Notes under the pieces: model-generated
What the model saw: the letters and a program-made list of their open reading frames with translations, nothing else
Databases searched by the model: none
What the model was told of the DNA's origin: nothing
Part shown: one piece after another, positions 5,677 through 30,571 of the stretch
Layout: each line of letters opens with the position of its first letter
How positions within the stretch are numbered: position 1 is the stretch's first letter
Source of the DNA: the human T2T-CHM13v2.0 reference genome, Homo sapiens
Assembly: GCF_009914755.1 (NCBI RefSeq)
Contig: NC_060940.1
Reading direction: 5' to 3' (one strand)
DNA: 64,000 bases
Translations under genes and position numbers: made by a program

Positions 5677-7314
5677 TTCAGAGCACCTCCTGTGTCAACA
5701 AGGATGTATTGAATGACTGTTATGTCTTCCAGGCATTTTGCTTGAGACTGAAATGAAAGAAACAATGAGTATGAGTATGATATAGTCCTTACTTGCTTAA
5801 GGAACCACTTCTTAGAAACAGGATACATTTTTCCATTCGAGATGGTAAATGTCATGATAAAAGTAACCAAATTTTCCAGAGGAATTTAGAGAAAGGAAGA
5901 CCAGAGAGTATCTCACATTGATGGTGAGTTATAGGCTGAATCTTAAAGTGTCTGTTTAATTTGTCCAGATAAATAAAGTTAGGAAGGGCATCCCAGGGAG
6001 AGGGAAGAGCTAATGTTTGGAGCCAGGAAGGAGAGTGGTGTACATGGGGTTCTGTAACTACTCCAGCACCTTCACCTTAGAACTTTAAAATATAATGTAG
6101 GATGTAGCAGGAGCCAAGGAGGTGGGCAACTTGCCAGTCATGCCAAAATACATCAATTTCAGTATTTTATTCTATACACGTTGAGTATCCAGGTATTGCA
6201 TTTCGATACGTGGATTCAGGATCTTCATGTCTGGAGGTAGAAGGAGCAATTTGAAATCTACTATAATGATCCAAGTGAATAATTGCAATCAGAAATAAGG
6301 TAGTAAAGGTGAGTGGATTTGAGGAGTATTTAAGACGAAAACTTACCAATCAGATGTAGTGGGTGAAGTTATATGAAGAATGAGGGTTAGTTAAGCACCC
6401 AGGACAATACTTGTATCAGGGAGATCAAATGACCACCAAAGTATGCAGAGCTGCCAAAGCATTACAGCCAGACTCAAGGTTGTAGGGACAAACTCATGAA
6501 GCACAAGGCCAGAGACCTGACAGAAGTAATGGTTTCCAGCAAGGTGATGTGGCAACCGCTAAAAACCAAACGAAAAGATGTGCATGTCAGTAAGTGCCTA
6601 CATGAAAAGATGGTAACTCCGGGCTAGCCAGCTTGTCCTAATCCCTCAAGGCCATCTTCACTCCCATCCAAACCCACATCTATATCCAGTCACTCATAGC
6701 TGTTGGAAGGGATAAAACAAAATGGACCAAGAAAAACCCCAGACTCATACTTTACCTAGAATACTTTCGATCCATAATATTACGGATTTTGTTTGTAACA
6801 GATATTTTCCCCTATCATTAGAGCAGTATAACTGTTGTGAATCCAAAAAAGAGAGCCACAGCTAAGTTGTGAAAAGGTATCTCCTCCCCTATCTAAAGAA
6901 ATAGGCAAGCTATTCACTCTCCTACAACTTCAGGGACCAAAGAAAAAAATGAATGAGGAGGGGAGACTTTAATACCTGCTTCCTGATGGAAACGGAGCTT
7001 TAGGTAGAAACTATTTCCAGGTAACTAATGTTATAAAACACTTAGATTTACAGTTGTCGTATTTTATATTTTTATATTTTATATACCTGAGTGTCTTCTG
7101 TAGTGTCCATAAAAGGGGTTTCAGATAATTGAGTTGGAAAACCAGCAGTAAATCTCCAGTGTTTCTGAACACTGGGCTAGACATTACCAGGAGAGAGAGG
7201 AGGATCCAGGTGTACTCGCTCTGTGTTTCAGGTCTGGCTACCTCCAGCATTTGACTTATTCTGACCCTCACCATCAGAATCAATAAGGGGAGTGTGCTAC
7301 AGTACAGTTTGCCA

Positions 7315-8205: not shown

Positions 8206-9037
8206 GATTAAAGGTTCATACTCCAAGGATTCTTGAGATACTGAATGAGATAATAATGAAAATGTTATGAAATTCTAATGGATTATATAAATTAAGGTGT
8301 TATTTTTATAAAGTACAGCACAAAGTGTTTATGAATTTGATGTACTTAAATCTAGCATTAATATGGTTCAGGCTATCACCTGATCTTTGCAGGACATGAG
8401 TAATAATGATATGATACTTTTAAGAATGCATATGAAAGAGTTACACAAACTTGATTCTAAGCACTCTCTGACCTTGGTTAATGTTCTAGGCAGAGAGAGC
8501 AAACCAAACACTTGCTCTGCCTTAAGAAATACCCCCATCATTCATTGGAGCTGGATGCATTTTATCTAGCACTTTATGCATTTATAAATATGCACTGAAG
8601 TCACTAGGTGACTTCAGAATCAGTCACTAGTCAGTTTTTATGTTTCAACAATTGGAACGTATTTTAAATGAACAGTCCCTCTGAACTTACTGCCATTTCT
8701 GTAATATTACTCAGTAAAACAAATGTGGGAAGTCCATAGTTTTAAACTTGCCATTTCCATTTTAAAATACTACAGCTAAAATAGCTAAGCAAATAGATTA
8801 AAACCAAAACCTTATAAGGAGTTTTCTTCAAGGGAGAGAATCATATATTAGTTTTCTTCCGTTTAGATTTATAAATTTCTCTTCCTTCTGAAAAGCATGA
8901 AAGCTTTTTCCTTTTTCTGCTCTCTCCTTCCCCATTGTCCTTCACTCCCTACTCCACTCCCTAAACACAACACAAACACACACTCTCTCTCTCTCTCATT
9001 CACTCATTTTTTTTTTCTTTTTTCTTTTTTTTTTTTT

Positions 9038-9418
9038 GAGCAACATGGCTGTTTATTTCACCTGGGTGCAGGCTGAGTCCGAAAAGAGAGTCAGGGAAGG
9101 GTGGTGGATTATCATTAGTTCTTATAGGTTTTGGGATAGGCGGTGAAGTTAAGAGCAATGTTTTGTGGGCAGGGTGGATCTCACAAAGTACATTCTCAAG
9201 GGTGGGGAGAATTACAAAGAAACTTCTTAAGCGTGGGGGAGATTACAAAGTACATTGACCAGTTAGGGTGGGACAGAAACAAATCACAATGGTGGAATGT
9301 CATCAGTTAAGGCTATTTTTACTTCTTTTGTGGATCTTCAGTTACTTCAGGCCATCTGGATGTATATATGCAAGTCACAGGGGATGCGATGGCTTGGCTT
9401 GGGTTCAGAGGCCTGACA
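9038..9418 (-). promoter_or_regulatory. HERV-H 3' LTR U3-R (type II/Ia, LTR7B/LTR7Y-like)
   Basis: Minus strand begins TGTCAGGCCTCTGA, preceded by polypurine tract AAGAAGGCAGGAA (9419-9431). TATA-like CCTATAAGAA near 9119-9128; AATAAA at 9052-9057. Subtype from memory. Confidence 0.85.
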
Positions 9419-9949
9419 TTCCTGCCTTCTTACATTAATAAGAAAAATAAAATAGTGTTGAAGTTTTGGGGCAGCGAAAATTTTCGGGGGTGGTATGGAG
9501 AGAGAATGGGCGATGTTACTCAGGGCTGCTTCAAGCGGGATTAGGGGCAGCGTGGGAACCTAGAGTGGGAGAGATTAAGCTGAAGGGAGATTTTGTGGTA
9601 AGGGGTGATATTGTGCGGTTATTAGAAGAAAAATTTGTCGTGTAGAATTATTGGTGATGGCCTGGATACGGTTTTGTATGAATTGAAAAACTAAATGGAA
9701 AAGGTCTAAGAATTGGGAGGACCTAGGACATCTGATTAGAGTGCCTAAGGAGATTCAGCATAGTCCTGCCAGCAAAGATTGTTTATTTACTTCAAGAGTT
9801 AAGAGTGGCAGGTTGGGGATAGCAGGAGGAGATATCAGCTGTGATGGCTTGGAGAAACAGTGTAAAACGGCAGTGTAAACAAGAGCAGGGCATGTATGAG
9901 TAGTTGAGAATGGAGAACAGGAGTATGACTAGACAGAAAATAGTAGGGA

Positions 9950-11900
9950 TGACAAGTTTTTTGGGGGCACAGTCTAAGTTGGTCCGGTGTCTGGAATGAG
10001 ACTGGGGCCTAATAAAAAGGAGCTCAAATGGGCTGTACCTTGTAGCATGCCGAGGACAGGTCTGACTTCTAAGAAGGGAAAGTGGTAAAAGTATTGTCCA
10101 GTCTTTTTAAGTTGGTGGCTGAGCTTGGTGAGGTGTGTTTTTAAAAGACCTTTAGTCCGTTCTACTTTTCTTGAAGACAGAGGACCGTAAGGGATATAAA
10201 GGTTTCACTGAATACTAAGAGCCTGAAAAACTGCTTGGCTGATTTGACTAATAAAGGCTGGTCTGCTATCAGACTGTATAGAGGTGGGAAGGCTAAACTG
10301 AGGAATTATGTCTGACAGAAGGGAAGAAATGACTGCGGTGGCCTTCTCAGACCCTGTAGGAAAGGCCTTTACTTATTCAGTGAAACTGTCTATTTAGACT
10401 AAGAGGTATTTTAGTTTCCTGACTTGGGGCATGTTGAATAAAGCTAATTTGCCAGTCCTGGGTGGGGGCAAATCCTTGAGCTTGATGTGTAGGGAAGGGA
10501 GGGGGCCTGAATAATCCCTGAGGAGTAGTAGAATAGCAGATGGAACACTGAGAAGTTATTTTCTTGAGGATAGATTTCCACGATGGAAAGGAAATGAGAG
10601 GTTCTGAGAGGCGGGCTAGTGGCTTGTACTATAGCATAGCCTGCCTTTGCTGTTGTGTGGCGATTAGGCCTGGTGGAACTGCCATCAATAAATCAAGCAT
10701 GATCAGGGTGAGGAACAGGAAAGAAGGAAATATGGGGAAATGGGGTGAATATCAGGTGGATCAGAGAGATACAGTCATGGGGGTCAGGTGTGGTATCAGG
10801 AATAATGTGGGAGGCCAGATTGAAGTCCGGGCCAGGAACAATGGTAATTGTGGGACTTAACAAAGAGTGAGTACAGCTGAAGGAGCTGGGGAGCCGAAAG
10901 TATATGCGTCAGGTATGAGGAAGAAAATAGATTTTGGAAGTTATGAGAAATGTAGAGAGTGAGTTGAGCATAGTTTGTGATTTTTAGGGCCTCTAAAAGT
11001 ATTAAAGCAGCAGCAGCCGCTGCACACAGACATGAGGGCTAGGCTAAAACAGTAAGGTCAAGTTGTTTGGACAGAAAGGCTACAGGGTGCGGTCCTGGCT
11101 CTTGTGTAAGGATTCTGACCACACTAACCATGCTTAGGAAGGAAAGGAGTTGTTGTTTTGTAAGGGATTGAGATTTGGAAGATTAATCAGACACGATCAG
11201 CAGGGAGAGCACGTGTGTTTTTATGAGAATTATGCCGAGATAGGTAACAGATGAGGATGAAATTTGGGCTTGATTGAAGTAATGGGGGCTGTCTGTGAAG
11301 CCTTGCGGCAGTACAGCCCAGGTAATTTGCTGAGCCTAGTGGTGTCAGGGTCAGTCGAAGTGAAAGCAAAGAGAGGCTGGGATGAAGGGTGCAAAGGAAT
11401 AGTAAAGAAAGCATGTTTGAGATCCAGAACAGAATAATGGGTAGTAGAGGCAGGTATTGAGGATAGGAGAGGATACGGGTTTGGCACCACGGGGTGGATA
11501 GGCGAAACAATTTGGTTGATAAGGCACAGATTCTGAACTAACTTGTAAGCCTTGTCTGGTTTTAGGACAGGTAAAATGGGGGAATGGTAAGGGGAGTTTA
11601 TAGGCTTTAAAAGGCCATGCTATAGCAGGCGAGTGACAACAGGCTTTAATCCTTTTAAAGCGTGCTATGGGATGGGATCTTGGCATTGAGCGGGGTAAGG
11701 GTGATTAGGTTTTAATGAGATGGTAAGGAGTGCATGATTGGTCGCCAAGGAGGGAGTAGAGGTATCTTATATTTGCGGGTTAAGGTGGGGGGATACAAGA
11801 GGAGGACACAAAGGAGGCTTTGGGTTGGGGAGAAGGGTGGCAATGAGATGTAGCTGTAGTCCAGGAATAGCCAGGGAAGCAGATAATTTAGTTAAAGGTG
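9950..11900 (-). pseudogene. pol: HERV-H pol remnant (RT, RNase H, integrase fragments; internally deleted)
   Basis: RT motif SVLDLKHAFFTIPLHPSSQPLFAFT (11230-11490 ORF). DSPHYF-like sequence joins directly to SSSSVTYLG near 11270, so the YxDD segment is missing. Integrase-like WQI and IQSD codons at ~10250-10460. Confidence 0.85.
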
Positions 11901-11902
11901 TC

Positions 11903-12127
11903 TCAGCCTAATAAGGGAACTAGGCAGGTGGGGATAACTAAAAAGGAGTGCTTAAAAGAATACTGTCTAAGTTGGCACCAGAGTTGGGGAGTTTTAAGAG
12001 GTTTAGAAGCCTGGCTGTCAATACCCACAGCAGTTATGGAGGCAAGGGAAACAGGCCCTTGAAAAGAAGGTAATGTGGAGTGGATAGCCTCCGTGTTGAC
12101 TAAGAAGGGGACAGACTTACCCTCCAC
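11903..12127 (-). pseudogene. pro: HERV-H protease remnant
   Basis: VPFLVNTEAIHSTLP: the catalytic DTG reads NTE. Confidence 0.8.
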
Positions 12128-12279
12128 TGTGAGAGTTACCCGAAGCTCGGCATCCGTGATGGTCTCGGGGGCTTCTGAGGCGATCGGGCAGCGTCAGTCT
12201 TCAGCCGCTAAGCCAAGAAGATCTGGGAAGGAGTCAGAGAGCCTTAGGCCAGAGTTCCAGGGGCTCTGGAAGTGGCTAC

Positions 12280-13450
12280 CAGGTGAGTTGAACAGTCCGA
12301 TTTTCAGTGGGGTCCTGCACACATGGGACACGGCTTAGGAGGAATCCCGGGCTGCGGGCATTCCTTGGCTCGGTGGCCAGATTTCTGGCACTTGTAGCAA
12401 GCTCCTGGGGGAGGAGGTTCTGGAGGAATGCCTGGCTGCTGCAGTTCAGGCATTTGGAATTTCTTGTGTGCTGGAGATGTGGCTGGTGTTTGTCTCACAG
12501 TGGAGGCAAGTAATTGCAACTCATAAATACATTGCTACTTGGCTGCCTCTACTCTATTATTGTACACCTTGAAGGCGAGGTTAACTAAGTCCTGTCGTGG
12601 GGTTTGAGGGCCGGAATTTAATTTTTGGAGTTTTATTTAATGTCGAGAGCAGATTGGGTAATAAAATGTATTTTGAGAATAAGACGGCCTTTTGACCTTT
12701 TAGGGTCTAGGGCTGTAGCGTCTCAGGGTTGCTGCCAAACGAGCCATGAACTGGGCTGGATTTTTATATTTGATGAAAAAGAGCCTAAACGCTTCTGATT
12801 TGGGATAAAGAAAAAGGAGCATTAACCTTGACTATGCCTTTAGCTCCAGCCACCTTTTTAAGAGTAAATTGCTGGGCAGGTGGGGGAGGGCTAGTCACTG
12901 AATGAAACTGTAAGCCGGACCAGGTGTGAGGAGGGGAGGTGATAAAAGGATTATAGGGTGGAGGAGCAGAGGCTGAGGAAGAATTGGGACCTAGCTTGGC
13001 CTGGTGAGGAGGGGAGAGGTCAGATGGGTCTATAGAAAAGGAAGATTAGAAAGACTCAGCGATGCTTGGGGTTGGGACTGAGGGGACAGGTGGGAGGGAA
13101 AGAAGGAAGATTTGGGATGAGTTGCATTGGGCACAGAGACTAGGAAGGGACCGATGTGTAAAAGAATGCCTGGACGTCAGGCACCTCAGACCATTTGCCC
13201 ATTTTATGACAAGAATTATTTAGATCTTGTAGGATGGAAACATTGAAAGTGCCGTTTTCCGGCTATTTGGAACTACTGTCGAGTTTGTTTTGGGGTCAAG
13301 CACCATTGAAGAAGAAAATAAGATGCTTAGATTTTAGGTCAGGTGAGAGTTGAAGAGGTTTTAAGTTCTTAAGAACACAGGCTAAGGGAGAAGAAGGAGG
13401 AATGGAGGGTGCAAGGTTGCCCATAGTGAAGGAGGCAAGCCCAGAGAAAA
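12280..13450 (-). pseudogene. gag: HERV-H gag remnant
   Basis: Nucleocapsid zinc knuckle CYKCQKSGHRAKEC, and a second knuckle CPMCAGPH broken by a stop (12304-12519 ORF). Confidence 0.8.
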
Positions 13451-13563
13451 GAGAGCATAGAGACATGGAGGGAAGGGGTTCAGGGGTTCTTACCCTCCAG
13501 AAAAGCGGGAAAGGGGTCGGGGCATGGAAATAAGGGATTGGGGGTTCTTGTCCCCTAGAAAAG

Positions 13564-14455
13564 CGGGACTTGCCGCTAAGGGTGAAGGAGAAGGGGTTGA
13601 GGGGTACGCCCCTCCCCCAGAAAAGCAGAGAAGGGGTAGAGACACGGAGAGAAGGGGTTGGGGTACTTTCCCCTCCCCCAGGAAAACAGGACTTGCCGCT
13701 AAGGGTGAAGGAGAAGGGGTTGAGGGGTACTTGCTCCTCCCCCAGAAAAGCAGAGAAGGGGTAGAGACACGGAGAGAAGGGGTTGGGGTACTTTCCCCTC
13801 CCCCAGGAAAACGGGACTTGCCGCTAAGGGTGAAGGAGAAGGGGTTGAGGGGTACTTGCCCCTCCCCCAGAAAAGCAGAGAAGGGGTAGAGACATGGAGA
13901 GAAGGGGTTGGGGTACTTTCCCCTCCCCCAGGAAAACGGGACTTGCCGCTAAGGGTGAAGGAGAAGGGGTTGAGGGGTACTTGCCCCTCCCCCAGAAAAG
14001 CAGAGAAGGGGTAGAGACACGGAGAGAAGGGGTTGGGGTACTTTCCCCTCCCCCGGGAAAACGGGACTTGCCGCTAAGGGTGAAGGAGAAGGGGTTGAGG
14101 GGTACTTGCCCCTCCCCCAGAAAAGCGGGACTTGCCACTAAGGGTGAAGAAGGGGTTGAGGGGTACTTGCCCCTTCCCCAGAAAAGCGGGACTTGCCACT
14201 AAGGGTGAAGAAGGGGTTGAGGGGTACTTGCCCCTTCCCCAGAAAAGCGGGACTTGCCACTAAGGGTGAAGAAGGGGTTGAGGGGTACTTGCCCCTTCCC
14301 CAGAAAAGCAGAGAAGGCGTAGAGACATGGAAAGAAGGGGTTGGGGTACTTGCTCCTCCCCCAGAAAAGCGGGACTTGCCACTAAGGGTGAAGAAGGGGT
14401 TGAGGGGTACTTGCCCCTTCCCCAGAAAAGCGGGACTTGCCGCTAAGGGTGAAGG
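13564..14455. repeat. Compound G-rich VNTR in the HERV-H leader (61-64 bp subunits, 125 bp higher-order unit)
   Basis: c(g/a)ggacttgcc recurs at 13564, 13687, 13812, 13937, 14062, 14126, 14187, 14248, 14370 and 14431. Confidence 0.95.
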
Positions 14456-14998
14456 ACTAAGGCAGGCGTCCCTGCATGGTCTGACACCTTGGAAACATGG
14501 GTGAATAATCAGAGAGGTGTCCCTGCAATGATTAAACATCAAGGGAAGGCTGCCTTCCCAGTCCATGAGCGGCGCCGGAGTTTTGGGTCCACAGATAAAA
14601 CGTGTCTCCTTTGTCTCTACCAGAAAATGAAAGGAATTGAAATTAAGAGAAGGGAGAGATTGAAGTGTGGCGCCACAATTGAAAGGAGAAAGAGGTTGAG
14701 GGATAGTGAGGGAGGTTGGAGAAGAGAGTAAAAAGAGGCCACTTACCGGATTTGAAATTGGTGAGATGTTTCTTGGGCTGGTGGGTCTGAGGACCTGAGG
14801 TTGTAGGTGGATCTTTCTCACGGAGCAAAGGGCAGGAGGACAGGGGATTGATCTCCCAAGGGAGGTCCCCCGATCCGAGTCACGGCACCAAATTTCATGC
14901 ACGTCCGTGTAAAGAGACCACCAAACAGGCTTTGTGTGAGCAACATGGCTATTTATTTCACCTGGGTGCAGGCGGGCTGAGTCCGAAAAGAGAGTCAG
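14138..14998 (-). other. Uninterrupted HERV-H leader ORF, ESRG/HESRG-like (CTG start, ~286 codons); coding status unknown
   Basis: LTLFSDSARLHPGEINS...ASTPQPLLHP*. Similarity to the ESRG putative protein is from recollection. Confidence 0.5.
14873..14890 (-). promoter_or_regulatory. Primer binding site for tRNA-His
   Basis: TGGTGCCGTGACTCGGAT, complementary to the 3' end of tRNA-His, just after U5. Confidence 0.95.
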
Positions 14999-15000
14999 CC
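14893..15000 (-). mobile_element. HERV-H 5' LTR remnant (R-U5 only)
   Basis: GGCTGACTCTCTTTTCGGACTCAGCCCGCC...GCATGAAA; no U3 upstream. Confidence 0.92.
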
Positions 15001-15396
15001 TCACTCATTTTTCTTAGCCAGTTCCCAGACAATAAACATATACATTATGGCACTTACTTTGTTTCTAACTCTGGTAACCATGTAGTTCAGTGCAAAAACC
15101 ATAGCCCTTAGTCCTTGTAGCCATGAACCCATGTTCAAGGTCCTACTCTGCGTTTTGCCAACTGTGTGTTTGGAGGAGAAGTCACCATGTGACATCTTAG
15201 TTTCCTCATCTATAATGTGCAGACTTCAGTGTCTTTTTACAATACAGTTGTGAGTGCTGAATGAAAAGAATAATAGTTACCCTGGGTAAAACGTATTCAA
15301 TATTTTAAAAGACTTATCTCTTTCCCCTTCTCATTCATTTTTTTCCTTTGGTCCCTGAAGTTGTCATAGAGTGAATAGCTTGCCTATTGTTTCCTT

Positions 15397-15700
15397 AGGT
15401 AGGTGAAAAGATAACTTTTCATCACCTAGCTATGGCTCTCTTTTTGTGATTCACAAGAGTTATACTGCTCTAATGGTAGAAAAAAATATTCATTACCAGC
15501 AAAATCCATAATGTTATGGATTGGAATTTCCACTGAGGAAAATTACTTTTTCAGGTAGGTGAGGAGGTACCTTGTCATACTTTAGCTATGGCTTTCTTTT
15601 TCAGATTCTCAAGAGTTATGCTGCTCTAATGGTAGGGGAAAATGTCCATTACAAATACAATCCATAGTATTATGGATTAGAATTTCCCCTGGGGACAATG
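15397..15700. repeat. Diverged tandem duplication, period 156 bp
   Basis: aggtaggtga at 15397 and 15553; shared tagctatggct, caagagttat, ctgctctaatggtag and aatccata...ttatggatt. Confidence 0.9.
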
Positions 15701-22062: not shown

Positions 22063-22159
22063 TTTTTTTTTTTTTGTCTGAGCGGGAAAAAATGGGTTGG
22101 CTTGATTTATTTTTGCTAATTTGTATTCTCCATGTATCTATATTGATTATTTAATTAAT
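22063..22159 (-). other. L1 3' transduction (~85 nt) plus second poly(A)
   Basis: Non-L1 sequence between the L1 A-tract (~22159-22167) and a poly(A) at 22059-22075, inside the TSD. AATAAA at 22106-22111. Confidence 0.88.
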
Positions 22160-22375
22160 TTTTTTTTATTATTATACTTTAAGTTTTAGGGTACATGTGC
22201 ACAATGTGCAGGTTAGTTACATATGTATATATGTGCCATGCTGGTGTGCTGCACCCATCAACTCGTCATTTAGCATTAGCTATATCTCCTAATGCCATCC
22301 CTCGCCCCTCCCCCCACCCCACAACAATCCCCAGACTGTGATGTTCCCCTTCCTGTGTCCATGTGTTGCCATTGT

Positions 22376-26179
<3,804 letters not shown>

Positions 26180-26242
26180 TATGATGTTAGCTGGTTATTT
26201 TGCTCGATAGTTGATGCAGTTTCTTCCTAGTCTCAATGGTCT

Positions 26243-27268
26243 TTACATTTTGGCATGATTTTGCAGCGGCTGGTACCGGTTGTTCCTTTCCATGTTTAGC
26301 GCTTCCTTCAGGAGCTCTTTTAGGGCAGGCCTTGTGGTGACAAAATCTCTCAGCATTTGCTTGTCTGTAAAGTATTTTATTTCTCCCTCACTTATGAAGC
26401 TTAGTTTGGCCAGATATGAAATTCTGGGTTGAAAATTCTTTTCTTTAAGAATGTTGAATATTGGCCCCCACTCTCTTCTGGCTTGTAGAGTTTCTGCTGA
26501 GAGATCCGCTGTTAGTCTGATGGGCTTCCCTTTGAGGGTAACCCAACCTTTCTCTCTGGCTGCCCTTAACATTTTTTCCTTCATTTCAACTTTGGTGAAT
26601 CTAACAATTATGTGTCTTGGAGTTGCTCTTCTCGAGGAGTATCTTTGTGGCGTTCTCTGTATTTCCTGAATCTGAATGTTGGCCTGCCTTGCTAGATGGG
26701 GGAAGTTCTCCTGGATAATATCCTGCAGAGTGTTTTCCAACTTGGTTCCATTCTCCCCATCACTTTCAGGTACACCAATCAGACGTAGATTTGGTCTTTT
26801 CACATAGTCCCATATTTCTTGGAGGCTTGTTCGTTTCTTTTTATTCTTTTTTCTCTAAACTTCCCTTCTCGCTTCATTTCATTCATTTCATCTTCCATCA
26901 CTGATACCCTTTCTTCCAGTTGATCGCATTGGCTCCTGAGGCTTCTGCATTCTTCACGTAGTTCTCGAGCCTTGGCTTTCAGCTCCATCAGCTCCTTTAA
27001 GCACTTCTCTGTATTGGTTATTCTAGTTATACATTCTTCTAAATTTTTTTCAAAGTTTTCAACTTTTTTGCCTTTGGTTTGAATTTCCTCCTGTAGCTCG
27101 GAGTAGTTTGATCATCTGAAGCTTCTTCTCTCAACTCGTCAAAGTCATTCTGCATCCAGCTTTGTTCCATTTTGTTCCATTGCTGGTGAGGAGCTGCGTT
27201 CCTTTGGAGGAAGAGAGGCGCTCTGGTTTTTAGAGTTTCCAGTTTTTCTGCTCTGTTTTTTTCCCCAT
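26243..27268 (-). pseudogene. ORF1: L1 ORF1, frameshifted
   Basis: ATGGGGAAAAAA start at 27268; RPNLRLIGVPE, ARREWGPIF and YQPLQNHAKM end. 10-bp duplication at 27161-27180. Confidence 0.95.
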
Positions 27269-27847
27269 CTTTGTGGTTTTATCTACTTTTGCTCTTTGAT
27301 GATGGTGATGTACAGATGGGTTTTTGGTGTGGATGTCCTTTCTGTTTGTTAGTTTTCCTTCTAACAGACAGGACCCTCAGCTGCAGGTCTGTTGGAGTTT
27401 GCTAGAGGTCCACTCCAGACCCTGTTTGCCTGGGTATCAGCAGTGTTGTCTGCATAACAGCAGATTTTTGTGAACCGCGAATGCTGCTGTCTGATCGTTC
27501 CTCTGGAAGTTTTGTCTCAGAGGAGTACCCGGCCATGTGAAATGTCAGTCTGCCCCTACTGGGGGGTGCCTCCCAGTTAGTCTGCTCGGGGGTCAGGGTT
27601 CGGGGACCCACTTGAGGAGGCAGTCTGCCCGTTCTCAGATCTCCAGCTGTGAGCTGGGAGAACCACTGCTCTCTTCAAAGCTATCAGACAGGGACATTTA
27701 AGTCTGCAGAGGTTACTGCTGTCTTTTTGTTTTTCTGTGCCCTGCCCCCAGAGGTGGAGCCTACAGAGGCAGGCAGGCCTCCTTGAGCTGTGGTGGGCTC
27801 CACCCAGTTGGAGTTTCCTGGCTGCTTTACCTCAGCAAGCCTGGGCA

Positions 27848-28060
27848 ATGGCAGGCGCCCTTCCCCCAGCCTCGCTGCCGCCTTGCAGTTTGATCTCAGA
27901 CTGCTGTGCTAGCAATTAGTGAGACTCCGTGGGCGTAGGACCCTCCGAGCCAGGTGCGGGATATGATCTCCTGGTGCGCCGTTTTTTAAGCCCCTCGGAA
28001 AAGCGCAGTATTCGGGTGGGAGTGACCCGATTTTCCAGGTGCCGTCTGTCACCCCTTTCT
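27848..28060 (+). pseudogene. ORF0: L1 ORF0 (antisense), premature stop after 23 codons
   Basis: MAGALPPASLPPCSLISDCCASN, TAG at 27917-27919, then VGVGPSEPG...RVGVTRFSRC in the same frame. Confidence 0.8.
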
Positions 28061-30571
28061 TTGACTAGGAAAGGGAACTCCCTGACCCCTTGTTCTTCCC
28101 GAGTGAGGCAATGCCTCGCCCTGCTTCGGCTCGTGCACGGTGGCTGCACCCACTGTCCTGCACCCACTGTCTAGCACTCCCTAGTGAGATGAACCTGGTA
28201 TCTCAGATGGAAATGCAGAAATCACCCATCTTCTGCGTTACTCACGCTGGGAGCTGTAGACCAGAGCTGTTCCTATTCGGCCATCTTCCATTATTTCAGG
28301 TGTTTAATTTTCTCTAAAGGATACTCCATAAATCGATGACAGAAGTTCCCCCTAGGTAGGGAAACTGGTTATCTGAAGTATAGAGGTGGGAAGCAAGCTT
28401 TTTCCTCCATAACCTTTTGTGCTTTGTGAATTTTGTACCATGAAGATATATTTGCTGCCCATTCAAAATTAAAAAAAAAAAATACATTTGGCTAAAAGTG
28501 TGATGTCTAAGTCAAGTCAGTTGAGAGTGTGATGGATTTCAAAGCAGACAGGGCACTTTCATCTCCTGGGGACTTTCTTACCTCCTTTGTTTTCCTTTCA
28601 TATGTCACCAGTGAATTCTTTCCTCCTACTGGTTAATGCTAGGTGGACTCATACAATGCCTACTGCATCTGGGACTCATTGTTATCATAGACCTTTCCTC
28701 ATATTGATATCTACATAATCAAAACATGAGCACCTCCTCATTTCTTATCCAGAACTTCCCAGAGGCCAATTAGGCAAATATTTCTTTCTTGAAATTTCTT
28801 AAAATCTTAAGCCCATCTCACAAAAGAGAAAACAAACTTAAGTCGTCAATGTGTTTTCTGTGCCTACAGGACATGACTGGATAATTTACATTTATGGTGG
28901 GAGTTACATTTCACTTACCTTGAAACCAGATCAATAGGAAATAGAAGAAAGAAAGCAAGCATTTGTTAAACGACCACCATTATGGAGCTTTAGGATAGGT
29001 ACTTTCTATTCATAGGTATATGAATTATATAACGAATTCATTTAATCCCCTCAAACCCATCAGAGAGGGGTAGTTTTATTATTCTTGTCTTATAATTGAG
29101 GAAACAGATACAAGAGTATTGAATAACTCATCCATGCATCCAACCCCTCTGACTCCAAGGCTCTTTCTACCAAAGTCCTGTTGAACTATAAGAAAATGTT
29201 ATGAAATAATAGAAGTTGGAAAGCTCATATCTTTGTTTCAGTCTTGTTTTACTAATCCTGTGCAGCAAAATGTCACCACCAAATGCAAGATGTATTTCAT
29301 AAAATGCCTTAATCTGTTTATTCATCACTTAAGGGTACATTAGAGAGACTGAGAACTTGATCTTTATTTTCCTACTAACAGATGTTGTTACTAAGAAACA
29401 TGTAATTGAGCACTTTGGGGCAATTACTTTAAAATATAATGCTCACCTTTCCAATAACTTTCCACACAGTTCCCCGAAATTAAGACACATTTCATGTTGA
29501 CTCATCAAAGGGCCCCATGCCCCCTCCTTTGAGACAATCCTACCTCTAAAAGTATGGTTTAAATTTGCCAACCCAGTACAAAAAGGAAGAATATCAGGCC
29601 TCCTACATATTCACAACCGTCTGTCACTAGATCTGGAGCAGCTTTTGGAAGCTTTTTAAGCCTCTCTCAAGTGTTTCCTTTCCTTACATCCAGGTGATTA
29701 CTGCATTCAAAAAATATTTTTCTCCCTTTCAGAAATTCCAGAATCCTGAAGTACATCTGTATCAGGTAAGGTTTTAAAAGATGTTTAAAGATAATTTAAA
29801 TAGTCAGTGCAATTTCTTAATTTCTCCAAATGTGCTGTGCTCTATCAAACACACTTTTTGCCTTTGTATCTGCATTTCCCTTTGTCTGGCTTGCTGCTGC
29901 TTCGCCCATTGACCACATCATCTTTTTCTTGTCAATCTTTATTTACCTTCAGGAGCCATTTCATCATCGATTCTTCTTTGAAATATATTCTGATTCCACC
30001 CTACCCCCTAGGCAGAGTTATGAACCTCCTCACTGTGACCACATTGAATGTCTTAAACAATAAACTCTCTTACAACATTGATTTCTTACATTTGCCTACA
30101 TCCTTTCTCCGCTGCTAGACTAATGCTATTCAAAAACTGCTATATGCATACACACAGGGATGAAGTGATGGTATTATAGACTGTGCCTGGCACAGAGGCT
30201 TGCTAAATGTTTGAATAAATTTTTGTTGAATAAACAAAATAGTATTGCTTGTTTTTATGAGAACATCAGACATTTATTAAGTCACTACTGCATAGACCAT
30301 TATGCTGAGGTTAATGTGGGACTTAGACCTACAAAAGCATCTACGTAGGAGGAGGTCAAGAGCATATGCTGTGGACCAATACAGATTTGCTTCCATTACT
30401 TATTCTAAGATGTATGGCAAATTAATCAACCCCATTATGCAAATGGTCTTATTAGGAAACTGAAAATATTAATAGTATTTTGACTGCATATATTTGTCCT
30501 GTATATTTAATAAGATAAATGTATATTAGACACTTACTGATAGATCTGACACACAAGAAGCATCAGGGACC

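What the first reader, a model, noticed from the sequence alone, without database searches (positions are those of the whole stretch)
9000..15015. HERV-H copied as an mRNA by LINE-1 machinery (retroviral processed pseudogene)
Seen: the 5' end starts at the R region with no U3. The 3' LTR stops about 14 nt after AATAAA and becomes a ~31-nt poly(A), with no U5. Both ends carry TCACTCATTTTT, or 15-bp TCACTCATTTTTCTT if the left T-run expanded, which gives a TCTT/AG endonuclease-like site. Established: retroviral integrase leaves two full LTRs and a 4-6 bp TSD, whereas L1 target-primed reverse transcription leaves poly(A) and a longer TSD. This structure is common for HERV-W and, to my knowledge, much rarer for HERV-H. 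Inference: a full-length, unspliced HERV-H transcript was mobilised by L1 in the germline or early embryo.
Basis: partly seen in the sequence, partly recalled or inferred. Interest (0 to 1): 0.85.

Follow-up and report, generated by a model that had tools for sequence, protein, structure and literature searches.

The report
HERV-H RNA copy inserted by LINE-1
This 6-kb stretch is a DNA copy of a complete HERV-H retroviral transcript that was pasted into chromosome 16 by LINE-1 machinery rather than by a retroviral integrase, and it is one of a few dozen such copies in the human genome.

Summary
On the minus strand, the element at window 9000-15012 runs: 12-bp duplication, one extra G, R, U5, tRNA-His primer site, gag-pro-pol remnants, U3, R, a 31-nt A-rich tail, then the same 12 bp. 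It has no 5' U3 and no 3' U5.

Its closest relative in this genome, on contig C5, is 4.4% diverged. That relative is an ordinary provirus with two 462-nt LTRs and a 5-bp duplication. It serves as an internal control.

LINE-1 target-primed reverse transcription of a capped, polyadenylated, unspliced HERV-H RNA is the best explanation (about 0.93).

The element is not a rarity:
- A 30-nt R/poly(A) junction pattern hits 41 places genome-wide and 0 in the reversed control.
- Of the 40 other hits, 18 have clear target-site duplications.
- Seven are full-length copies that start at the same base.
- Two are spliced-RNA copies, and one contains R only.
- Eight of 10 copies that start at that base carry an extra G that neither U3 nor the duplication explains, as expected from a reverse-transcribed cap.

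I found no paper describing HERV-H processed pseudogenes, and one review calls HERV-W the sole L1-mobilised group. The key 2002 paper was not available.

Verdict: a new member of a known kind, of moderate interest.

The parts
15001..15012 (-). 5' copy of the target-site duplication (sense AAAAATGAGTGA)
   Evidence: identical 12-mer to 9000-9011; unique at this spacing in the window.
15000..15000 (-). One extra G between the duplication and R, read as a copy of the RNA cap
   Evidence: The base before GCTGAC is C or T in 19 of 20 genuine U3 contexts. An unexplained G is present in 8 of 10 copies that start at this base. An untemplated G is taken as a cap mark in PMC6425141 (passages).
14937..14999 (-). 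5' R region (63 nt, GCTGACTC...GTTGCTCA), containing the AATAAA-type signal
   Evidence: The published HERV-H 'R region' primer matches exactly at 14996 and 9092.
14893..14936 (-). U5 (44 nt), present only at the 5' end
   Evidence: aligned to both LTRs of the C5 provirus.
14873..14890 (-). Primer-binding site complementary to tRNA-His (TGGTGCCGTGACTCGGAT)
   Evidence: The identical 18-mer is given as the HERV-H PBS-tRNA-His primer in PMC3253121. It also occurs in four tRNA or small-RNA papers, two of them on tRNA-His by title or abstract (listing).
9419..14872 (-). Internal region: leader with retained splice donor (GT at about 14746-14745), tandem array, and gag NC, protease and RT remnants, all with broken frames
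   Evidence: Pfam: zf-CCHC 31.3 bits (cut-off 20.8) at 12307-12534; RVP 20.0 bits (cut-off 20.7) at 11906-12193; RVT_1 25.2 bits (cut-off 29.6) at 11233-11619. Collinear with proviral relatives. Introns retained compared with spliced copies L025 and L047.
13551..14456 (-). Tandem array of 125-nt units (7.3 copies) in the leader, about 620 nt longer than in relatives
   Evidence: Relatives jump from element position about 684 to 1304.
9096..9418 (-). U3 of the 3' LTR (starts TGTCAGGCC), with a 31-nt deletion relative to the C5 provirus LTRs
9038..9095 (-). 3' R region, ending 14 nt after AATAAA (GTTGCTC); no U5 follows
9012..9037 (-). Poly(A) tail (A13 G A6 G A5). With the five A of the duplication, the A-rich run is 31 nt
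9000..9011 (-). 3' copy of the target-site duplication (sense AAAAATGAGTGA)

Best explanation
A HERV-H provirus elsewhere in the genome was transcribed from its 5' LTR start site. The RNA was capped, left unspliced, and cleaved and polyadenylated at the normal site in the 3' LTR. LINE-1 ORF2 protein nicked a T-rich target on chromosome 16 and primed on the poly(A) tail with the freed T-run. It reverse-transcribed the whole roughly 5.96-kb RNA up to and including the cap. Repair of the staggered second nick produced the 12-bp (possibly 15-bp) duplication. The result is a promoterless copy: R-U5 ... U3-R-A(n).

Shown: the anatomy, the contrast with a proviral relative, and the recurrence of the same ends in other copies.

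Inferred: that L1 was the agent, that the event was in the germline or early embryo, and the date. The date is at most about 18 My at 0.13%/My, from a terminal branch of 0.023.
For: 1. The ends coincide with RNA landmarks. The element starts at the first base of R and stops 14 nt after AATAAA.

2. Ten independent copies with both ends seen, including this one, start at the same GCTGAC. All 41 junction hits stop at CTC(A) or CTCAC followed by A-runs.

3. The tail is 31 nt and A-rich, and the duplication is 12 of 12 identical. That duplication is unique at this spacing in the window.

4. There is one extra G before R. U3 cannot template it, because C or T sits there in 19 of 20 U3 contexts. The same extra G is seen in 8 of 10 copies that start at this base. 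It is a recognised cap mark (PMC6425141 passages).

5. Internal control. The sister element on C5 (tree support 1.000, p-distance 0.0436 over 4,354 sites) has two complete 462-nt LTRs and a 5-bp duplication, ATAGT.

6. Among the 40 other junction hits, 18 have duplications of 9-21 nt that begin with a purine-rich, mostly A-rich, stretch. This matches the TT/AAAA-type target described for HERV-W pseudogenes (PMC5016936 section 5).

7. Identity as HERV-H. The published PBS-His and R-region primers match exactly, and gag NC, protease and RT remnants lie in retroviral order.
Against: - With the 12-bp duplication, the target reads AG|AAAAA in sense orientation (TTTTT/CT on the nicked strand). This is not the canonical TT|AAAA. 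The 15-bp reading (CT|AAGAAA) fits slightly better but needs a 5-A length change.
- No empty orthologous site was seen.
- No source provirus was proven. The closest relative is 4.4% diverged, and its LTR-specific changes are mostly absent from this copy. It may be a sibling rather than the source.
- L1 involvement rests on the structural signature, not on any direct trace of L1.
Confidence: 0.93

Rival explanations
1. This is an ordinary integrase-made provirus that later lost its 5' U3 and its 3' U5 through two independent deletions. The A-run and the repeated 12-mer are coincidences.
For: HERV-H proviruses are abundant, and deletions in them are common (this copy has a 31-nt U3 deletion). 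A (CA)n/(CT)n low-complexity tract lies beside the left end.
Against: - Both breakpoints fall exactly on the transcription start and the poly(A) site.
- The same two breakpoints recur in 7 other full-length copies at unrelated loci, each with its own duplication.
- The 12-mer is unique at this spacing.
- A true provirus of the same lineage shows a 5-bp duplication and full LTRs.
Confidence: 0.01
2. The HERV-H RNA was reverse-transcribed and inserted without L1 endonuclease. This could have happened at a pre-existing DNA break, or through another reverse transcriptase such as a retroviral one with aberrant integration.
For: The nick site is not the canonical TT|AAAA. HERV-H-related reverse transcriptases existed in the same period (recalled).
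Against: - Retroviral reverse transcription regenerates complete LTRs, and this copy has none.
- From established knowledge (recalled), endonuclease-independent L1 insertions usually lack duplications and often lack tails. This copy has a 12-bp duplication, a 31-nt tail and a T-run at the priming site.
- The 18 other verified copies show the same signature.
Confidence: 0.04
3. The structure was carried here by a DNA-level event, such as a segmental duplication or gene conversion from another retrocopy, and was not inserted here as RNA.
For: Some junction hits are DNA duplicates of each other. L038, L039 and L040 share the same flanks.
Against: - The right flank is single-copy in this genome apart from a 200-nt repeat within the window.
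- The best genome-wide match to the interior is only 95-96% identical and is a two-LTR provirus.
- The duplication directly abuts both ends of the element.
Confidence: 0.01

Closest known systems
HERV-W processed pseudogenes (L1-mediated; Pavlicek et al. 2002 as summarised in Grandi et al. 2016, PMC5016936 section 5)
   Same: R-U5 at the 5' end, U3-R at the 3' end, a poly(A) tail, a duplication longer than an integrase makes, collinearity with the retroviral RNA, and no promoter.
   Different: - A different retroviral group: PBS-His, with exact matches to HERV-H primers.
- For HERV-W, pseudogenes outnumber proviruses (135 versus 65 of 213). For HERV-H I found 41 junction candidates. PMC3253121 puts the family at about one thousand elements.
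- A review calls HERV-W the sole group mobilised by L1 (PMC5537654 abstract).
Processed pseudogenes of cellular mRNAs made by L1 (Esnault et al. 2000; seen only as a reference entry, mechanism from established knowledge)
   Same: Trans-mobilisation of a capped, polyadenylated Pol II transcript by target-primed reverse transcription, giving a tail, a duplication and an occasional cap-derived G.
   Different: The template is an unspliced, non-coding retroviral genomic RNA of about 6 kb. Most cellular retrocopies come from spliced mRNAs and are shorter.
L1 5' transduction that starts at a HERV-H LTR7Y start site with an untemplated G (PMC6425141, passages)
   Same: A HERV-H LTR start site is used, the cap leaves an untemplated G, and L1 machinery makes the insertion.
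   Different: In that case the HERV-H exons are spliced onto an L1 RNA that mobilises itself in cis. Here there is no L1 sequence in the insertion.
Integrase-made HERV-H provirus (example: contig C5, 136.82 Mb, loci L029, L030 and L052)
   Same: The same internal sequence and LTR type. It is the sister lineage in the tree.
   Different: The provirus has two complete 462-nt LTRs and a 5-bp duplication, ATAGT. The window element has neither.
Spliced HERV-H sequences in genomic DNA
   Same: Genomic copies of HERV-H transcripts show that the family was amplified through RNA.
   Different: As I recall that paper, those copies carry LTRs and so went through retroviral reverse transcription. The spliced copies I found (L047, L025) end in poly(A) without U5, and L047 has a 14-nt duplication.

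Membership tests
L1-mediated HERV processed pseudogene (criteria from PMC5016936 section 5) | The 5' LTR is reduced to R-U5 and starts at the transcription start | tested here: met
   The same start base is used in 9 other copies.
L1-mediated HERV processed pseudogene (criteria from PMC5016936 section 5) | The 3' LTR is reduced to U3-R and ends at the polyadenylation site | tested here: met
   It ends 14 nt after AATAAA.
L1-mediated HERV processed pseudogene (criteria from PMC5016936 section 5) | A poly(A) tail directly after R | tested here: met
   a 31-nt run with 29 A.
L1-mediated HERV processed pseudogene (criteria from PMC5016936 section 5) | A variable-length target-site duplication (5-15 bp) flanking the whole insert | tested here: met
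   12 of 12 identical at 9000-9011 and 15001-15012. Chance control.
L1-mediated HERV processed pseudogene (criteria from PMC5016936 section 5) | A TT/AAAA-type insertion motif | tested here: inconclusive
   The sense-strand target is AG|AAAAA (12-bp reading) or CT|AAGAAA (15-bp reading). It is T-rich on the primed strand but not canonical.
L1-mediated HERV processed pseudogene (criteria from PMC5016936 section 5) | An empty pre-insertion site with a single copy of the duplicated sequence in an outgroup | not testable with these tools
   No other primate genome is held. No paralogous site exists in this genome.
HERV-H | A primer-binding site for tRNA-His next to the 5' LTR | tested here: met
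   18 of 18 identity to the PBS-tRNA-His primer of PMC3253121.
HERV-H | LTR and internal sequence homologous to other HERV-H copies | tested here: met
   The R primer matches exactly. A 144-nt query from the 5' end gave 1,906 first-look candidates genome-wide, and 40 of 40 scored were 96-100% identical. The interior is 88-95% identical to 33 other loci.
HERV-H | Assignment to an LTR7 subfamily (7, 7B, 7C, 7Y and so on) | not tested
   No repeat library is held. Only 7 loci share this U3 type across the whole query.
Integrase-made provirus | Two complete LTRs (U3-R-U5) and a 4-6 bp duplication | tested here: not met
   in contrast with the C5 provirus.

The most novel reading that the evidence does not exclude
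HERV-H RNAs were repeatedly trans-mobilised by L1. The forms include the unspliced genomic RNA, at least two spliced isoforms and an R-only transcript. They left a few dozen retrocopies, a class that the literature I could search does not describe. Its existence contradicts the statement that HERV-W is the only L1-mobilised HERV group. These copies are a fossil record of the exact HERV-H start site (with cap G), poly(A) site and splice sites used in ancestral germline or early-embryo cells.
Probability: 0.45. Interest if true: 0.5.

Novelty: new member of a known kind. Interest (0 to 1): 0.4.

Why it matters
- Annotation. Copies like this are promoterless. They should not be counted as proviruses in HERV-H catalogues, LTR-divergence dating, provirus to solo-LTR ratios or expression studies that assume a 5' U3 promoter. 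PMC4724089 states that it did not separate processed pseudogenes from proviruses.
- Biology. HERV-H RNA and active L1 protein must have met in cells that contribute to the germline. This fits the known early-embryo expression of both.
- RNA landmarks. The set of copies pins down the HERV-H start site, poly(A) site and splice junctions at single-base resolution without any RNA data.
- Limits. The locus itself sits in a gene desert with no annotated gene in the window, and it has no evident function.

Tried and rejected
- Pavlicek et al. 2002 (PMC155283) is not held. I cannot say whether it mentions HERV-H copies.
- Literature searches gave no description of HERV-H processed pseudogenes. The exact phrases gave 0 papers. 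Passages read in PMC5016936, PMC5537654, PMC6298018, PMC6995185, PMC5775608, PMC4724089, PMC4862087, PMC12228294, PMC4905674, PMC8912925, PMC12016303 and the bioRxiv preprint 10.1101/2024.04.18.590093 gave none either. These were keyword passages, not whole texts, and no supplements were opened.
I then fetched 1,050-nt pieces. As a result, 12 of those 20 have unresolved 5' ends.
- L002 (contig C11) begins like a retrocopy. My guess at its 3' end (L031) contained no HERV-H sequence, so it is not counted.
- A search for a paralogous empty site with the right flank found none.
- The source-provirus test against the C5 element was inconclusive. At sites where its two LTRs differ, this copy's R-U5 is like the 5' LTR at 1 site and like the 3' LTR at 3. 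Its U3-R is 4, 7 and 2 (like 5', like 3', other). The C5 LTRs differ at 17 of 462 sites. That makes C5 no older than its split from this copy, within error.
- Pfam found nothing in 16 of 20 ORF translations and gave one spurious weak hit (DisA, E = 0.0039).
- My first automatic 5'-boundary calls were misled by an Alu inside one reference copy. I redid them without it.
Full report
**Observation**

The element lies on the minus strand of the window. Read 5' to 3' in sense, with coordinates verified by script, it runs as follows:

| Part | Window coordinates | Note |
|---|---|---|
| 5' duplication | 15012-15001 | AAAAATGAGTGA |
| Extra G | 15000 | one base |
| R | 14999-14937 | 63 nt, GCTGACTC...GTTGCTCA |
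| U5 | 14936-14893 | 44 nt |
| TT | 14892-14891 | |
| Primer-binding site | 14890-14873 | 18 nt |
| Internal region | 14872-9419 | |
| U3 | 9418-9096 | starts TGTCAGGCC |
| R | 9095-9038 | ends GTTGCTC, 14 nt after AATAAA |
| Tail | 9037-9012 | A13 G A6 G A5 |
| 3' duplication | 9011-9000 | AAAAATGAGTGA |

- With the five A of the 3' duplication, the A-rich run spans 9037-9007: A13 G A6 G A10, 31 nt with 29 A.
- A pairwise alignment of the two ends shows that they share only R. A self-BLAST of the window finds only a 64-68-nt match between the ends and no other HERV-H copy in the 64 kb.
- The 12-mer is identical at both ends. It is the only position of 57,900 in the window with an identical 12-mer at that spacing.
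- Even with 10 nt of slack on each side, only 161 of 200,000 random window pairs share a 12-mer.
The left copy of the duplication starts at 9000.

**Identity**

- The 18-nt primer-binding site equals the 'PBS-tRNA-His' forward primer of a HERV-H expression study. That study's 'R region' reverse primer also matches exactly, at both R copies (PMC3253121 methods passage; positions).
- The same 18-mer also turns up in four tRNA or small-RNA papers, two of them on tRNA-His by title or abstract (listing only).
- Stop-to-stop ORFs on the minus strand gave the following Pfam matches, in retroviral order along the sense strand:

| Domain | Window coordinates | Bits | Cut-off |
|---|---|---|---|
| Gag zinc knuckle (zf-CCHC) | 12307-12534 | 31.3 | 20.8 |
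| Protease (RVP) | 11906-12193 | 20.0 | 20.7 (just under) |
| Reverse transcriptase (RVT_1) | 11233-11619 | 25.2 | 29.6 (under) |

- The other 17 of 20 translations gave nothing usable. All frames are broken.

**Comparison with relatives in the same genome**

The whole assembly is searchable, and the window is G000:C16:68758001-68822000.

- A 4,360-nt query from the interior plus the 3' LTR found 33 other loci at 88-95% identity. Only 34 of 2,974 first-look candidates were scored. Seven loci align across the whole query, including the variable part of U3.
- I fetched those seven. I built a FastTree GTR tree from ten natural sequences: this copy, the seven relatives and two retrocopies, over 4,549 alignment columns.
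- This copy is sister to a locus on contig C5 (136.82 Mb) with support 1.000. The p-distance is 0.0436 over 4,354 sites, and the terminal branches are 0.0232 and 0.0270.
- The C5 element is a textbook provirus. Both LTRs are complete at 462 nt each and differ at 17 sites. Its 3' LTR runs on through U5. It is flanked by a 5-bp duplication, ATAGT.
- The C5 provirus is the internal control for what an integrase leaves. The window element lacks exactly the 5' U3 and the 3' U5 and has a 12-bp duplication instead.
- From R to the poly(A) site the window element is collinear with this provirus. The one exception is a tandem array in the leader, described under 'Other things seen'.

**Not unique**

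I searched the genome for the 30-nt junction (the last 20 nt of R plus ten A), allowing up to 2 mismatches. This gave 41 hits, 20 forward and 21 reverse, against 0 for the reversed pattern. One hit is this element.

First batch: 20 of the other 40, fetched with 9.5 kb of upstream sequence (analysis).

| Class | Loci | Count |
|---|---|---|
| Full-length, unspliced, starting at the same GCTGAC, each with its own duplication | L011, L012, L014, L016, L017, L019, L024 | 7 |
| R only: start site to poly(A) site, about 62 nt, 13-nt duplication | L022 | 1 |
| Truncated inside U5, 17-nt duplication | L018 | 1 |
| 5'-truncated further in, with duplications of 15-21 nt | L010, L015, L021, L027, L028 | 5 |
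| 5'-truncated copy of a doubly spliced RNA | L025 | 1 |
| Unresolved | L009, L013, L020, L023, L026 | 5 |

I took 1,050-nt pieces instead.

| Class | Loci | Count |
|---|---|---|
| Complete copy of a doubly spliced RNA, from start site to poly(A), 14-nt duplication | L047 | 1 |
| Short 5'-truncated copies with duplications | L034, L041, L049 | 3 |
| A different composite (see 'Other things seen') | L038, L039, L040, L048 | 4 |
| 5' end beyond the piece or unclear | the remaining 12 | 12 |

In total, 18 of the 40 other hits have verified duplications. The true number of copies is probably higher. The pattern fixes one poly(A) site variant, and L002 looks like a further copy that the pattern missed.

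**Cap signature**

- Ten copies have both ends known and start at GCTGAC.
- Eight of them carry one G between the duplication and GCTGAC: this one, L012, L014, L016, L019, L022, L024 and L047.
- L011 has no extra G. In L017 the G is part of the duplication.
- In 20 genuine U3-R contexts from the fetched loci, the base at that position is C or T in 19 and G in 1.
- An untemplated G at the 5' end of an L1-made insertion is read as a reverse-transcribed cap. It was reported for an RNA that started in a HERV-H LTR7Y (PMC6425141 passages).
- The template was therefore a capped transcript that began at the LTR's own start site.

**Unspliced**

- The spliced copies L047 and L025 join the leader (ending ...AAATC[C/T]G) to internal exons and then to the 3' LTR.
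- At each of these points the window element has GTAAGT after the exon end, or AG before the exon start.
- The window element keeps both introns. It is a copy of the genome-length RNA.

**Mechanism**

These features together are the signature of L1 target-primed reverse transcription acting in trans on a polyadenylated RNA. The same features define HERV-W processed pseudogenes (PMC5016936 section 5).

Target site:
- On the primed strand the target is ...TCACTCATTTTT/CTTAGCC with the 12-bp duplication.
- It is ...TTTTTCTT/AGCC if the duplication is 15 bp and one A-run changed length by five.
- Neither is the canonical TTTT/AA. Both are T-rich at the priming end.
- The duplications of the other copies likewise begin with purine-rich, mostly A-rich, stretches in sense orientation.

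That L1 was the agent is inferred from this signature and from the established fact that L1 is the only source of such activity in catarrhine genomes. Nothing in the sequence names it directly.

**Age and source**

- The terminal branch of 0.0232 includes any time spent in the source lineage, and it includes CpG sites.
- At the 0.13% per My used for HERV dating (PMC5016936 methods), it gives about 18 My as an upper bound.
- The perfect duplication and the nearly pure tail fit an insertion that is not very old.
- The C5 provirus cannot be shown to be the source. At sites where its LTRs differ, this copy mostly lacks the LTR-specific changes. Its LTR divergence of 3.7% makes it no older than the split, within error.
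- It is either the source soon after its own integration or a sibling of a lost source.

**What is known**

- HERV-W processed pseudogenes are well described: 135 of 213 loci.
- A genome-wide HERV classification notes that processed pseudogenes were not separated from proviruses (PMC4724089 passages).
- Five full-text searches and keyword passages in twelve papers gave no description of HERV-H processed pseudogenes.
- The founding paper (Pavlicek 2002) was not available, and I opened no supplements. I therefore cannot claim that the class is unpublished.
- The mechanism is entirely conventional. The finding is a new member of a known kind, and the genome-wide set is a modest addition to it.

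**Other things seen**

- The leader holds a 125-nt tandem array of 7.3 units at 13551-14456. It is about 620 nt longer than in the C5 provirus and the other copies compared. This explains the unmasked gap in NCBI's repeat mask.
- A 6.1-kb L1 with ORF1, endonuclease and RT domains lies at about 22143-28290 on the same strand.
- Five junction hits join an SVA-like VNTR repeat to the last ~340 nt of the LTR plus poly(A), all at the same internal LTR position.

Noticed in passing
window 13551-14456: A tandem array of 125-nt units (7.3 copies, 91% matches) lies in the HERV-H leader. It is about 620 nt (about 5 units) longer than in the closest provirus and in the other copies compared. It accounts for the unmasked stretch 14045-14331 in NCBI's repeat mask. 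Whether it expanded before or after insertion is unknown.
   Followed up: partly
window 22143-28290 (minus strand): A LINE-1 of about 6.1 kb with recognisable ORF1 (RBD and dsRBD domains), endonuclease and RT pieces. ORF2 is broken into several frames. It lies 13 kb from the HERV-H copy in the same orientation. There is no evidence of any link.
   Followed up: partly
loci L013, L038, L039, L040, L048 (other chromosomes): An SVA-like VNTR repeat (GGGCAGAGGC.CTCCTCAC.TCCC units) is joined at one and the same internal LTR position (AGATCCACAAAAGAAG...) to the last ~340 nt of a HERV-H LTR ending in poly(A). L038, L039 and L040 share flanks and so are duplicates of one locus. L013 and L048 have different flanks. 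This looks like a small composite retrotransposon family or repeated 3' capture. I could not name it.
   Followed up: no
locus L047 (contig C12, 113.99 Mb) and locus L025 (contig C1, 25.75 Mb): These are retrocopies of doubly spliced HERV-H RNAs. L047 is complete from the start site (with extra G) to poly(A) in about 0.8 kb and has a 14-nt duplication. L025 is 5'-truncated. Their junctions coincide with GTAAGT and AG sites retained in the window element.
   Followed up: partly
locus L022 (contig C14, 33.49 Mb): An R-only retrocopy: G plus R (about 62 nt) plus poly(A), flanked by a 13-nt duplication. The transcript started at the LTR start site and was polyadenylated at the same LTR's own signal.
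   Followed up: partly
locus L033 (contig C4, 145.68 Mb): A 3' LTR plus poly(A) piece is preceded by a 53-nt HERV-H fragment in inverted orientation. This resembles the 5' inversions that L1 twin priming makes.
   Followed up: no
locus L043 (contig C11, 26.17 Mb): A diverged LTR-like copy begins exactly at the first U3 base (TGTCAGGCC) and ends at the R/poly(A) junction without U5. Its origin is unresolved.
   Followed up: no
locus L002 (contig C11, 42.27 Mb): A HERV-H copy whose 5' end begins GGCTGAC directly after non-LTR sequence, like the retrocopies. Its 3' end is not among the 41 pattern hits and was not in the piece I fetched.
   Followed up: partly
window 8964-8999 and 15323-15521: A (CA)n/(CT)n microsatellite abuts the 3' duplication. 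A 200-nt stretch of the right flank matches window 6770-6964 on the opposite strand at 84%, probably an old interspersed repeat.
   Followed up: no
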